Shown here piece by piece: positions 47,901 through 58,093 of a stretch of DNA of 64,000 nt; positions within the stretch are counted from its first letter, which is position 1, and every line of letters starts with the position of its first letter. The position numbers and the translations under genes were made by a program. Location: NCBI GenBank assembly GCA_009914755.4, contig CP068257.2:6016001-6080000 (forward strand). The letters run 5' to 3'. The notes below the pieces were generated by a model. That model made no database searches, was not told the DNA's origin, and worked only from the letters and a program-made list of their open reading frames with translations. The stretch comes from the human T2T-CHM13v2.0 reference genome, Homo sapiens.

Positions 47901-48520
47901 ATAGGGGGCATTGTGAAATATCTCTGCACCGATCACCCAGGTGATGGGACTCTTCTCTATACTCTACCTAGAGGGGGATTTGTGACATATCTCTGCACTG
48001 ATCACACAGGTGACGGAAGTCTTTTCTAGGCTCTGTGTATGGGGGAATTGTGTCAAATATCTGCAATGACCACCCAGGTGATGTAACTCTTTTCTAGGCT
48101 CTGTCTATGGGGATTTTTGTGACATATCACTGCACTGATCACCTATGTGATGTAAGCCTTTTATGAACTTTGCCTACAGAAGGCTTTGTGACATATCTAT
48201 GCACTGATCTCTGAGGTGATGCAAGTCTTGTCTAGGCACTGCCTACAGGGGACATTGGTACATATCTCTGTACTGATCACCCAGGTGATGGAATGTTGTC
48301 TTAGATCTGCCTACATGGACATTGTGACAAATCTCTGAACTTATCAACCAAGTGATGAAAGTCTTGCCTAGGTTCTGCCTAGGGGGGCTTTGTGACACAT
48401 TTCTGCACTGATCACCCTGGAGAGGAAACTCTTGTCTACACTCTGCATACAGGAGGCTTTATGACTTATACCTGCACTGATAACCTAGGTGATGTAACAC
48501 TTGTCTAGGCTTTGCCTACG
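44989..48520 (+). repeat. Beta-satellite array, block 6, about 3.5 kb, truncated by the inversion breakpoint
   Basis: 68-bp monomers with head at 44,989 onward. Only the first roughly 120 bp of the conserved tail (caccctggagaggaaactcttgtctacactctgcatacaggaggctttatgacttatacctgcactgataacctaggtgatgtaacacttgtctaggctttgcctacg) is present before an abrupt switch to GC-rich D4Z4 sequence at 48,521. Confidence 0.9.
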
Positions 48521-48963
48521 TGGGAGCCAGCACCGGTGGGAATCTCGGCTCTGGCCCGGGAGACGCGGCCCGCAAGAAGGCAGGTGAAAGTGGACCGGCG
48601 TCACCAGATCCCAGACCGCCCTGCTCCTCCGAGTCTTTGAGAAGGATCGCTTTCCAGGCATCACCGCCAGGGAAGAGGTGGCCAGAGAGAAGGTCCTCCT
48701 GCAGTCCAGGATTCAGATCTGGTTTCACAATCGAACGGCCAGGCACCCGGAACAGGCTGACAGGGCGCCCGCACAGGCAGGCGGCCTGTGCAACGCGGCG
48801 AATGGTGGGTGTCATCCTACTCCCTCGTGGGTCGCCTTCACCTACACCGGCGCGTGGGGAACGGGGCTTTCCGCACCCCACGTGCCGTGCGCACCTGGGG
48901 CTCTCCCACAGGGGGCTTTCGTGAGCCAGGGAGTGAGGGCCGTCATTGTGCTCCAGCCCAGCC
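48521..48963 (+). repeat. Partial D4Z4-like fragment (about 443 bp, covering the homeodomain 1 to homeodomain 2 linker through post-homeodomain 2), plus orientation, with non-native junctions on both sides
   Basis: ORF 48678..48986 (+) reads …[57 protein letters not shown]…. The left junction joins beta-satellite tail to D4Z4 mid-gene at 48,521. The right junction joins D4Z4 mid-gene to inverted beta-satellite at 48,963. Confidence 0.85.
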
Positions 48964-55668: not shown

Positions 55669-57712
55669 CTGGAGAATAGTTACATCTTCCTGGATGATCA
55701 GTTCAGAAATATGTCACAATGCCCCCTCCCTGCGGAGCCTAGAGAAGATTTGCATCATTTGGGTGATCAGTGCAGAGATTTATCACAATGTCCCCTGTAC
55801 AAAATGCCTGGGAATGATTTACATCACCTCGGTGATCAGTGCATAGGTATGTCAGAAATCCCCAGTAGGCTGAACCTAGACAAGGGTTACATCACTTAGG
55901 TTATCAGTGTAGAGATATGTGAAAATTCCCGTGTAGACAGAGCCTAGACAGGTGTTACACCACCTAGGGATCAGTGCCGGGATATGTCATAAAGCCTCCT
56001 GTAGGCAGAGTGTAGACAAGTGTTTCCTCCCTGGGGTGATCAGTGCAGAGATATGTCACAAAGCCCCTATAAGCAGAACTTTGACAAGGGTTACATCACC
56101 TGTTTGATCAGTGGAAATGTATATCACAAAGACCCCTGTAGGCAAAGCCCAGACAATTGTTACATCACCTGGGTGAGCAGTGGAGAGATATGTCACAATG
56201 CCCCTGTAGGCAGAGCTTAGACAAGGGTTACATCACCTGGATGATCAGTGCAGAGATATGTCAAAACGCTCCTGTAGGCTGAACCTAGACAGGAGTTACA
56301 TCACCCAGGTTATCAGTGCAGAGATATGTGAGAATTCCAGTGTAGGCAGAGCCTAGACAAGTGTTATATCACCTAGGTTATCAGTGCAGGTATAAGTCAT
56401 AAAGCCTCTTGTAGGCAGAGTGTAAACCAGAGTTCCCTCCCCAGGGTGATCAGAGCAGAGATGTGTCACAAAGCCCCTGTAGGCAGAGCCTAGACAAGAG
56501 TTTCATCACTCAGTTGATCAGTTCAGAGATGTGTCACAATGTCCATGTAGGCAGATCTAAGACAAGTGTCCATAACATGGGTGATCTGAGCAGAGATATG
56601 TACCAATGTCCCCTGCAGCCAGTGCCTAGACAAGAGTTGCATCACCTCAGAGATCAGTGCATAGATATGTCACAAAGCCTTCTATAGGTAAAGCTCATAC
56701 AAGGCTTACATCACCTGGGTGATCAGTGCAGAGATATTTCACAATGTCCCCTGTAGGCAGAGAGTGGAAAAGAGTTAGATAACCTAGGTGATCTTTGCAG
56801 GGCTATGTCAAAACGCCCCTGTAGGCAGAGCCTAGATAAATATTACATCACCTGGGTGATCAGTGCAGAGATAGGTTCCAATACCCCATGTAGGTGGAGC
56901 CTAGACAAGAGTTACATCACCTGGGTGATCAGTGCAGAGATATGTCACAAAGCCCCTGTAGGCCGAGCCTAGACAAGCGTTACATCACGTGGGTGATCAG
57001 TGCAGAGATATCTCACAATATCCCCTGTAAGCAGAGTCTAGACCAGAGTTACATCACGTGGGTGATCAGTGTAGAGATGTGTCATAAATCCCACTGTATG
57101 CAAACCCTAGACAAGTTTTACATCACCTCAGCGATCAGTGCAGAGATATGTCCCAGTGTCCCTCTTGGCAGAGCTTAGACAAGAGTCACATCTCCTGGGT
57201 GATCAGTCCAGAGATAAGTCACAATGCCCCCATAGACAGGCCTAGACAAGAGTTATATAACCCGAGTGATCCTCAGTGCAGAGATATGTCACTATGCCCC
57301 CATAGGCAGATCCAAGACAAGAGTCCATCACCTGGGTGCTCACTGCAGAAATATGCCACAATGCTGCCATTGGGCAGATATAGACAAGAGTTACATCACC
57401 TGCGTGATCACTGCAGAGATATGTCACAATGCCCCTGTAGGCAGAGCCTAGACAAGTGTCCCATCACCTGGGTGATCAGTGCAGAGTTATGTCACAATGC
57501 CCCCTTTTGGCAGAGCCTAGACAAGGTTTACATCACCTGGGTGATCAGTGCAGAGATGTGTCACAAGCCCCCTGTAGCCAGAGACTAGACAAGTGTTACA
57601 TCAGCTGTGTGATCAGTGCAGTGACATGTCACAGTGCCCCTGTAGCCATATCCTTGACAAAAGTGACATCACTTGGGTGATCAGTGCGCAGATATGTCAC
57701 AATGTCTTCAGT
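55669..57712 (-). repeat. Beta-satellite array, block 8, inverted orientation, about 2.0 kb
   Basis: Starts with the pLAM-like degenerate monomers and reverse-complemented tail after plus-strand unit 7. Ends at 57,712 in middle-type monomers, joined directly to forward-orientation beta-satellite. Confidence 0.93.
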
Positions 57713-58093
57713 AGGCACTGATCACCCCAGGGAGGAAACACTTTTCTACGCTCTGCCTACAGGAGTCTTTACGACTTATCCCTGAACTGATCACTAGGTG
57801 ATGTAACACTTGTCTAGGCTCTGTCTACACGGGAATTTTCACATACCTCTGCACTGATAACCTAAGTGATGTAACCCTTGTCTAGGTTCAGCCTACTGGG
57901 GATTTCTGACACACGTATGCACTGATCAGCGAGGTGACATAAATCATTTCCAGGCTTTTTTTGCAGGTGATATTGTGAAATATCTCTGCACTGATCACCC
58001 AAATGATGCAAATCTTCTCTGGGCTCCGCAGGGAGGGGCATTGTGACATATTTCTGAACTGATCATCCAGGAGATGTAACTATTCTGCAGGCT
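57713..58093 (+). repeat. Beta-satellite, block 9, forward orientation, 0.38 kb (distal part of the conserved tail only)
   Basis: ctgatcaccccagggaggaaacacttttctacgctctgcctacagg… matches tail offset about 430 to the end and runs into D4Z4-like unit 8. Confidence 0.9.

What the first reader, a model, noticed from the sequence alone, without database searches (positions are those of the whole stretch)
48400..57730. Inverted segment of about 9.2 kb (48,521-57,712) with three non-canonical junctions, roughly 310 bp of tail lost and an orphan 443-bp D4Z4 fragment
Forward beta-satellite tail is interrupted after about 120 bp at 48,521 by plus-orientation D4Z4 sequence that starts mid-gene, at the homeodomain 1 to homeodomain 2 linker. 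At 48,963 this fragment is joined mid-gene to reverse-complemented tail beta-satellite, entering at about tail offset 370, which is not the native D4Z4-to-tail junction. Inverted beta-satellite then runs to the intact plus-orientation unit 7, and further inverted beta-satellite runs to 57,712. At 57,712 (…cagtaggca|ctgatcacc…, 3-bp gca overlap) the orientation flips back to forward and resumes the tail at about offset 430. This looks like an inversion with flanking deletion and fragment capture, the kind of break-and-repair scar expected from replication-based or non-homologous end-joining rearrangement inside satellite DNA. Alternatively it could be an assembly artefact.
Basis: seen in the sequence. 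Interest (0 to 1): 0.55.

Follow-up and report, generated by a model that had tools for sequence, protein, structure and literature searches.

The report
Old inversion inside beta-satellite/D4Z4-like array
A 9.2-kb piece of a human-type beta-satellite array, carrying one D4Z4-like unit and a 449-bp stub of another, really is flipped, but this is an old example of the strand switches already known to pepper such arrays, because its right-hand junction recurs, base for base, in two diverged copies from unrelated assemblies.

Summary
Strand-specific monomer mapping shows exactly two orientation switches in the 56-kb beta-satellite array, at about 48,521 and 57,712. All of 48,521-57,712 is inverted relative to the six other D4Z4-like units, including the 2.78-kb unit 7 and the D4Z4 fragment. 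All three junctions are non-homologous, with 2-5 bp of microhomology.

Small corrections:
- Junction 2 lies at 48,969|48,970, so the fragment is 449 bp.
- About 293 bp of the conserved flank is missing between the two outer forward ends.
- The inverted beta-satellite next to the fragment stops only 43 bp short of where forward sequence resumes at 57,713.

The 24-mer across junction 3 occurs in two independent metagenome contigs. Both share both breakpoints and differ by 5-12% from the window and 6-8% from each other. Junction 3 is therefore real, old and later duplicated. It is neither an assembly artefact nor a private repair scar.

No outside copy of junctions 1 or 2 was found, so their age is open.

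Published T2T-CHM13 analyses already report a "mosaic inversion structure" and over 200 inversion breakpoints in the HSat3B5 array on chr9 and in such beta-satellite arrays. This is an ordinary member of a known kind, and its exact rearrangement path cannot be recovered from the window alone.

The parts
47091..48520 (+). Forward conserved beta-satellite flank ('lead') A. It corresponds to positions about -2328 to -689 before a D4Z4-like core. It is truncated at J1, and no core follows it.
   Evidence: colinear with the flanks of units 1-4 at 82-91%. The last base aligns 688-689 bp before the core in units 2, 3, 5 and 7.
48516..48526 (.). Junction 1: forward beta-satellite joined to the inverted-block D4Z4 fragment, with an imperfect 3-5 bp overlap (TGGGA).
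   Evidence: alignment to flank paralogues and core paralogues; the last + monomer is cut at model position 45.
48521..48969 (+). 449-bp D4Z4-like fragment, core positions about 1353-1792. It is DUX4-sense on + (HD1-HD2 linker, homeodomain 2 and downstream sequence), is a pseudogene, and has the same orientation as inverted unit 7.
   Evidence: strand and 83-89% identity to all cores, best unit 5 at 89.0%. (DUX4 6e8c residues 63-140, E = 2e-39, one in-frame stop).
48968..48970 (.). Junction 2: fragment joined to inverted beta-satellite at flank position about -435, with a TG microhomology.
   Evidence: core homology runs through AGGCTG, and flank homology starts at (TG)TTACATC.
48970..52875 (-). 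Inverted beta-satellite. Read in its own orientation it is the 2.2-kb spacer after core 7 followed by a second conserved flank (lead_f) that runs to about -435.
   Evidence: colinear with the forward spacers. Identity to the spacer after unit 5 is 86.7%, with only single-monomer indels.
52876..55652 (+). D4Z4-like core of unit 7. It is full length (2,777 bp), inverted relative to the six other units, DUX4-sense on +, and its ORF is broken.
55653..57712 (-). Inverted conserved flank of unit 7 (2,060 bp, equivalent to -2328 to -1 in units 3 and 4), truncated at J3.
57710..57712 (.). Junction 3: inverted flank joined to forward flank with a GCA microhomology. The same junction is present in contigs OOQC01001152.1 and OLDQ01000063.1.
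57713..58103 (+). Forward flank D, the last 391 bp before core 8.
   Evidence: 90-93% identity to the last about 390 bp of the flanks of units 2, 3, 5 and 7.
58104..60883 (+). D4Z4-like core of unit 8 (forward, DUX4-antisense on +). It is the reciprocal best match of unit 3.

Best explanation
The window holds a beta-composite satellite: 68-bp beta-satellite interspersed with 2.78-kb divergent D4Z4/LSau cores. Each core is preceded by a conserved beta-satellite flank that stays colinear between units for at least 2.3 kb (to -3.3 or -3.9 kb in some). This is the kind of array found on human acrocentric short arms and pericentromeric chr1. One module of it (flank, core 7, spacer, most of the next flank) was inverted long ago by a break-and-rejoin or template-switch event that used 2-5 bp microhomologies.

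Shown:
- The orientation switch.
- The three non-homologous junctions.
- The antiquity and later duplication of J3.

Inferred:
- The right-hand break lay in the flank of unit 8. The block's left satellite end (-435) and the resuming forward sequence (-392) are its two reciprocal ends, with 43 bp lost.
- The left-hand junction is compound. It carries a 449-bp core piece that is either a remnant of a neighbouring inverted core or a templated filler. Sequence was lost there, because the left forward end (-689) and the block's right end (-2328) are not contiguous.
- The structure has no function. It is a fixed rearrangement in methylated heterochromatin that was then co-amplified with its neighbours, which adds to the mosaic strand pattern of these arrays.
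For: - Strand map with exactly two switches; co-inversion of core 7 and the fragment.
- Microhomology at all three junctions, read against paralogues.
- Flank coordinates of the ends: A -689, lead_f about -435, D about -392, block right end about -2328.
- The J3 24-mer was found in two metagenome contigs whose alignments cross the junction. Both sides are colinear. Identity to the window is 89-95% left of J3 and 88-90% right of it, and 92-94% between the two contigs.
- Cores are 85-88% identical pairwise in a star-like tree, so the array is old.
- Reciprocal best pairs (U2,U7) and (U3,U8), with bootstraps of 86 and 92, fit an ancestral forward order U7 then U8 that parallels U2 then U3.
- There is no repeat of 150 bp or more that could cause a misjoin.
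[quoted passage not shown] There are 319 copies of a 5'-truncated D4Z4-pLAM unit in LSAU-BSAT regions (PMC10620044).
Against: - J1 and J2 have no outside support. Their 24-mers and 20-mers gave no hits. Four exact ORF look-ups found nothing. Two protein searches found only canonical flank or canonical D4Z4 ORFs, none crossing J2.
- The J3-bearing copies (U8, L001, L002) do not form a clade in the core tree. Either gene conversion has scrambled the signal or the history is more complex.
- The 43-bp near-contiguity is only modestly significant, roughly 0.03-0.05 after allowing for the pairs that could have been tested.
- The two outer forward ends are also nearly contiguous (293 bp). That would fit an inverted insertion into one flank equally well.
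- The host species of the two metagenome contigs is unknown.
Confidence: 0.72

Rival explanations
1. Inverted duplication or insertion by serial template switching (a FoSTeS/MMBIR-like event) at a single stalled fork in one flank. Synthesis ran forward to -689 and switched to the opposite strand of a nearby core, copying 1792 back to 1353. It then jumped to -435 of a flank and copied 8.7 kb backwards, and finally returned to the original strand at -392. On this model the block is an inverted copy rather than a flipped original.
For: - Three of the six breakpoint ends fall within 300 bp of one flank coordinate: -689, -435 and -392.
- Every junction has microhomology.
- The two outer forward ends belong to one flank, with only about 293 bp missing.
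- The forward arm (core 5 to A) and the inverted arm (lead_f to core 7) are colinear with almost equal spacer length, 3,518 against 3,655 bp to the -689 point.
Against: - The predicted twins are not each other's closest relatives. U5-U7 cores are 85.7% identical, no closer than any other pair.
- A against lead_f is 85.6%, below A against the U1 flank at 87.4%.
- The fragment is least similar to core 8 (83.4%).
- Any inversion in a tandem array produces mirror-image arms, so colinearity is not specific.
- Clustering of three ends within 300 bp has a chance expectation of about 0.1.
Confidence: 0.2
2. A recent, private or polymorphic end-joining scar in this individual.
For: The junctions look like non-homologous or microhomology-mediated joins. 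J1 and J2 were not found in any outside sequence.
Against: J3 is shared by two copies that are 5-12% diverged, so at least that junction is ancient. The searchable collections hold only traces of human DNA, so the absence of J1 and J2 is weak evidence.
Confidence: 0.06
3. An assembly artefact: a misjoin or a chimeric read carried into the consensus.
For: Satellite DNA is hard to assemble, and no reads are available here to check.
Against: The same J3 appears in two unrelated assemblies. Neighbouring units are only 85-88% identical, and the longest exact repeat shared with the rest of the window is 100-149 bp, so long reads place this region uniquely within the window. Misjoins occur at long identical repeats, not at 2-5 bp overlaps.
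Confidence: 0.02

Closest known systems
Mosaic inversions (strand switches) in beta-satellite arrays of chr1 and the acrocentric short arms, as described for T2T-CHM13 (Nurk et al. 2022, PMC9186530; Altemose et al., bioRxiv 10.1101/2021.07.12.452052)
   Same: A block of beta-satellite, with its embedded LSau/D4Z4-like unit, lies in the opposite orientation inside an otherwise head-to-tail array. An HSat3-like array lies next door, as on acrocentric proximal short arms.
   Different: Those papers count breakpoints and show the strand tracks. The passages read here do not describe junction sequences. This study adds base-level anatomy, microhomologies and evidence that one junction has been copied. 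Whether this window is one of their catalogued sites could not be checked.
LSAU-BSAT composite / divergent 5'-truncated D4Z4-pLAM repeats (Hoyt et al. 2022 as cited in, and Butterfield et al. 2023, PMC10620044)
   Same: Divergent D4Z4 cores of about 2.8 kb with decayed DUX4 double-homeobox ORFs, interspersed with beta-satellite blocks at irregular spacing.
   Different: The literature read here treats these units as dispersed copies. It does not describe the long conserved beta-satellite flank, or the inverted module with a truncated core stub seen here.
The single inverted, truncated D4Z4 unit (DUX4c) proximal to the 4q35 array, and its chr22 paralogue (PMC10620044)
   Same: A lone D4Z4-derived unit in inverted orientation relative to a nearby D4Z4 array.
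   Different: That unit lies in unique sequence near FRG2, not inside beta-satellite. No FRG2-like sequence or unique flank is present here. The resemblance comes from the paper's description and was not tested by alignment.
Complex rearrangements with microhomology and inserted fragments (FoSTeS/MMBIR, alternative end-joining); named from general knowledge
   Same: There are several breakpoints within a few kilobases, 2-5 bp microhomology at each, and a short piece in inverted orientation at one junction.
   Different: No high-identity source copy of the inserted or duplicated pieces exists in the window. The event is too old for the diagnostic duplication signal to survive.

Membership tests
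Beta-composite satellite (betaSat + LSau/D4Z4-like; LSAU-BSAT composite) | Tandem 68-bp beta-satellite monomers | tested here: met
   Spacing of the GATCA anchor peaks at 68-69 bp. A profile built from 35 monomers finds 537 hits covering 7,838-64,000 apart from the cores. TRF gives a period of 67.
Beta-composite satellite (betaSat + LSau/D4Z4-like; LSAU-BSAT composite) | Interspersed D4Z4-related GC-rich units carrying DUX4 double-homeobox sequence | tested here: met
   Seven 2.55-2.83-kb GC-rich cores. The fragment's translation hits DUX4 structures at E = 2e-39. The unit 7 ORF carries the homeodomain 1 motif [10 protein letters not shown].
Beta-composite satellite (betaSat + LSau/D4Z4-like; LSAU-BSAT composite) | Location on human acrocentric short arms or pericentromeric chr1 | not testable with these tools
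   No human genome collection is searchable here. The adjacent HSat3-like (ATTCC)n array is compatible with that location.
Intra-array satellite inversion (strand switch) | An internal block in opposite orientation, flanked on both sides by the same array in the same orientation | tested here: met
   +397 / -88 / +52 monomer runs. Core 7 and the fragment are on the opposite strand to the six other cores.
Intra-array satellite inversion (strand switch) | The junction is real in the genome, not produced by assembly | tested here: inconclusive
   J3 is confirmed by two independent diverged contigs. J1 and J2 have no outside evidence. Reads are not available.
Simple two-break conservative inversion | The reciprocal ends of each break are contiguous in the uninverted unit | tested here: not met
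   The right break nearly fits (-435 against -392, 43 bp lost). The left break does not fit (-689 against about -2328, plus a 449-bp core fragment). Extra loss or insertion is required.
Inverted duplication by template switching (DUP-INV, MMBIR type) | A forward source copy that is the closest relative of the inverted copy | tested here: not met
   No forward segment in the window is closer to the block than the general 85-94% background. A source outside the window, or erosion by age, cannot be excluded.
Inversion by staggered breaks (inverted duplications at both ends) | The segment shared by flank A and the block's far end (-2328 to -689) should be twin copies | tested here: not met
   A against the unit 7 flank is 79.7%, the second-lowest of the eight comparisons made and the lowest among the unit flanks.

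The most novel reading that the evidence does not exclude
The mosaic strand pattern of beta-composite arrays may not come from hundreds of independent breaks. A few founding inversion junctions, such as J3, may have been built into a larger module and then amplified and dispersed with it. J3 would then mark one such founder lineage, and J3-type k-mers could be used to trace how acrocentric and chr1 beta-satellite blocks spread.
Probability: 0.4. Interest if true: 0.4.

Novelty: new member of a known kind. Interest (0 to 1): 0.2.

Why it matters
The practical result is a negative one. This is not a mis-assembly flag, at least for its right-hand junction, and it is not evidence of recent instability.

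Modest positive value:
- It gives base-level anatomy of one of the many strand switches counted in complete human satellite maps.
- It shows that at least one such junction was copied after it formed.
- If that holds generally, counts of 'inversion breakpoints' in beta-satellite overstate the number of rearrangement events.
- Junction k-mers could then serve as lineage markers for exchange between acrocentric short arms.

Tried and rejected
- Exact look-ups of four ORFs crossing or abutting J1 or J2 in the public gene-position index found nothing.
- The J2 24-mer gave no hit in metagenome or genome contigs. The J1 24-mer gave no hit in genome contigs. J1, J2 and J3 20-mers gave no hit in viral contigs.
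- Two protein searches used J2-spanning ORFs in different frames. The first gave 11 hits, each covering only one side of J2. The second gave 148, and the best-covering ones were read: P0012 and P0017 continue as canonical flank, and P0062 and P0077 as canonical D4Z4. None crosses J2.
- Staggered-break duplication was rejected, because A and the unit 7 flank are only 79.7% identical.
- A recent inverted duplication of a neighbouring unit was rejected, because there is no match above the general 85-94% background.
- I tested whether the block's right end (-2328) is a natural duplicon boundary. It is not: the flanks of other units stay colinear further upstream, to -3300 or -3900.
- I tested whether J3-bearing units form a clade. 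They do not; the tree is star-like.
- Altemose et al. could not be opened by a guessed PMC id, so the bioRxiv version was used.
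Full report
**What the window is**

Bases 1 to about 7,800 are an HSat3-like (ATTCC)n array with embedded Alu fragments. 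From 7,838 to 64,000 the sequence is 68-bp beta-satellite. It is interrupted by seven GC-rich cores of 2.55-2.83 kb and one 449-bp piece:
- U1 11,654-14,478
- U2 17,656-20,439
- U3 27,306-30,078
- U4 38,119-40,673
- U5 42,220-45,002
- fragment 48,521-48,969
- U7 52,876-55,652
- U8 58,104-60,883

The cores are divergent D4Z4. The fragment's translation matches DUX4 structures at E = 2e-39, and the unit 7 ORF carries homeodomain 1. This is the beta-composite (LSAU-BSAT) architecture described for acrocentric short arms and chr1. The cores are only 85-88% identical to each other, so the array is old.

Each core is preceded, in array orientation, by a conserved beta-satellite flank. The flank is colinear between units for at least 2.3 kb, and up to 3.3-3.9 kb in some. 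I use this flank as a coordinate system, with negative numbers meaning bases before the core.

**Checking the observation**

A monomer profile gives 397 plus-strand hits, then 88 minus-strand hits (48,989-57,717), then 52 plus-strand hits, with no strays. AT skew changes sign over the same span.

Unit 7 aligns to unit 1 on the minus strand over 4 kb at 88%, while all other units align on the plus strand. The fragment aligns on the minus strand to units 1-5 and 8, and on the plus strand to unit 7.

So the whole of 48,521-57,712 is one inverted block that includes unit 7 and the fragment. On the + strand the block reads DUX4-sense and the other six units read DUX4-antisense.

Junctions were read against paralogues of both partners:
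- **J1** lies at 48,520-48,526, with an imperfect TGGGA overlap.

The fragment starts at the DUX4 HD1-HD2 linker.

**Anatomy in flank coordinates**

- The left forward end A stops at -689.
- The right forward end D starts at about -392.
- Read in its own orientation, the block is: flank of unit 7 starting at about -2328 (2,060 bp), core 7, a 2.2-kb spacer, a second flank (lead_f) running to about -435, then core positions 1353-1792 (the fragment).
- The block's satellite end at J2 is only 43 bp away, in flank coordinates, from where D begins.
- The block's other end (-2328) is a true breakpoint and not a duplicon edge, because other units stay colinear further upstream.

**Outside evidence**

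The 24-mer across J3 occurs in two metagenome contigs, OOQC01001152.1 (3,311 bp) and OLDQ01000063.1 (2,430 bp). Both align straight across J3, with the same last base on each side.
- To the right they have a forward flank from -392 and about 2 kb of core.
- To the left they have inverted flank starting at about -2328, of which 934 bp and 236 bp are present.
- Their identity to the window is 89-95% to the left and 88-90% to the right. Their identity to each other is 92-94%.

They are therefore different loci, or loci of another primate, that inherited the same junction. This rules out an assembly artefact for J3 and shows that J3 predates later duplication.

The same kinds of search found nothing for J1 or J2. 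Sampling of human DNA in these collections is sparse, so this is weak evidence that the left junctions are rarer or younger.

Inside the window, the longest exact repeat shared by 47-59 kb with the rest is 100-149 bp. Nothing here would mislead a long-read assembler.

**How it arose**

All three junctions are non-homologous with short overlaps, which points to end-joining or template switching rather than recombination between inverted repeats.

*Preferred model: an old in-place inversion.* The right-hand break was in the flank of unit 8. Its two ends are now at J2 (satellite side, -435) and J3 (D, -392), with 43 bp lost. The core tree supports an original forward order of U7 then U8. U7 pairs with U2 (bootstrap 86) and U8 pairs with U3 (bootstrap 92), as if U7-U8 were a copy of U2-U3.

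The left-hand side cannot be explained as simply. A (-689) and the block's right end (-2328) are not contiguous, and a 449-bp core piece sits between A and the block. That piece may be:
- what is left of the next inverted core after a 1.79-kb deletion (-435 to 1353) and a further truncation, or
- a templated or captured filler.

*Rival model: a single template-switch event.* On this model the block is an inverted copy. It would account for the clustering of three ends (-689, -435, -392) within 300 bp, and for the near-contiguity of A and D. However, the predicted twin relationships are not seen: U5 with U7, A with lead_f, and the fragment with core 8. With all units about equally diverged, the window cannot settle this.

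Staggered-break duplication is rejected.

**Comparison with what is known**

[quoted passage not shown] This finding is one such strand-switch pair.

What is added here is the junction-level description and the demonstration that one junction exists in at least three diverged copies. That suggests part of the mosaic arose by amplifying modules that already contained an inversion.

**Verdict**

It is a real microhomology-joined inversion with local loss. It is old and fixed rather than a fresh scar, the assembly-artefact alternative is excluded for J3, and 'fragment capture' is unproven.
- This is an ordinary member of a known class, and interest is low.

Noticed in passing
window 1-7,837: An HSat3-like (ATTCC)n array (TRF period 5, about 1,367 copies, 66% matches) with Alu-derived fragments, e.g. 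7,625-7,690. Locally there are 172-227-bp higher-order periods. It abuts the beta-satellite array at about 7,815-7,838.
   Followed up: partly
window 38,119-42,219: Unit 4's core is about 255 bp shorter than the others (2,555 bp; alignment to unit 1 skips 13,369-13,622). Only 1,546 bp separates it from core 5, so unit 5's conserved flank is cut at about -1547. This is another non-canonical spacing, and U4 and U5 are sister units (bootstrap 94).
   Followed up: partly
window cores U2/U7, U3/U8, U4/U5: The cores form reciprocal best pairs: 87.3%, 87.6% and 87.1% against 85-86% for other pairs, with bootstraps of 86, 92 and 94. This hints that the array grew by duplicating two-unit blocks (U2-U3 with U7-U8) and by a local tandem duplication (U4-U5).
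   Followed up: partly
window 20,440-27,305, 30,079-38,118, 45,003-48,520, 48,970-52,875, 60,884-64,000: The beta-satellite between cores is not a homogeneous monomer array. Spacers are colinear with each other over several kb at 85-95% and differ mainly by large blocks of 2-4 kb that are present or absent. The real repeat unit is therefore a multi-kb composite.
   Followed up: partly
window 9,000-11,653: The flank of unit 1 carries an internal tandem re-duplication. The segment that lies at -689 in other units is found twice, ending at about -1186 and at about -638.
   Followed up: no
L001 (OOQC01001152.1) and L002 (OLDQ01000063.1): Two contigs deposited as metagenome assemblies are primate beta-satellite/D4Z4-like DNA, presumably host contamination. 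A protein search also returned over 140 short ORFs that matched the beta-satellite half of the query from ENA, JGI and NCBI metagenome or genome records. One of them is named 'predicted RNA-binding protein with TRAM domain' by its source (P0061).
   Followed up: no
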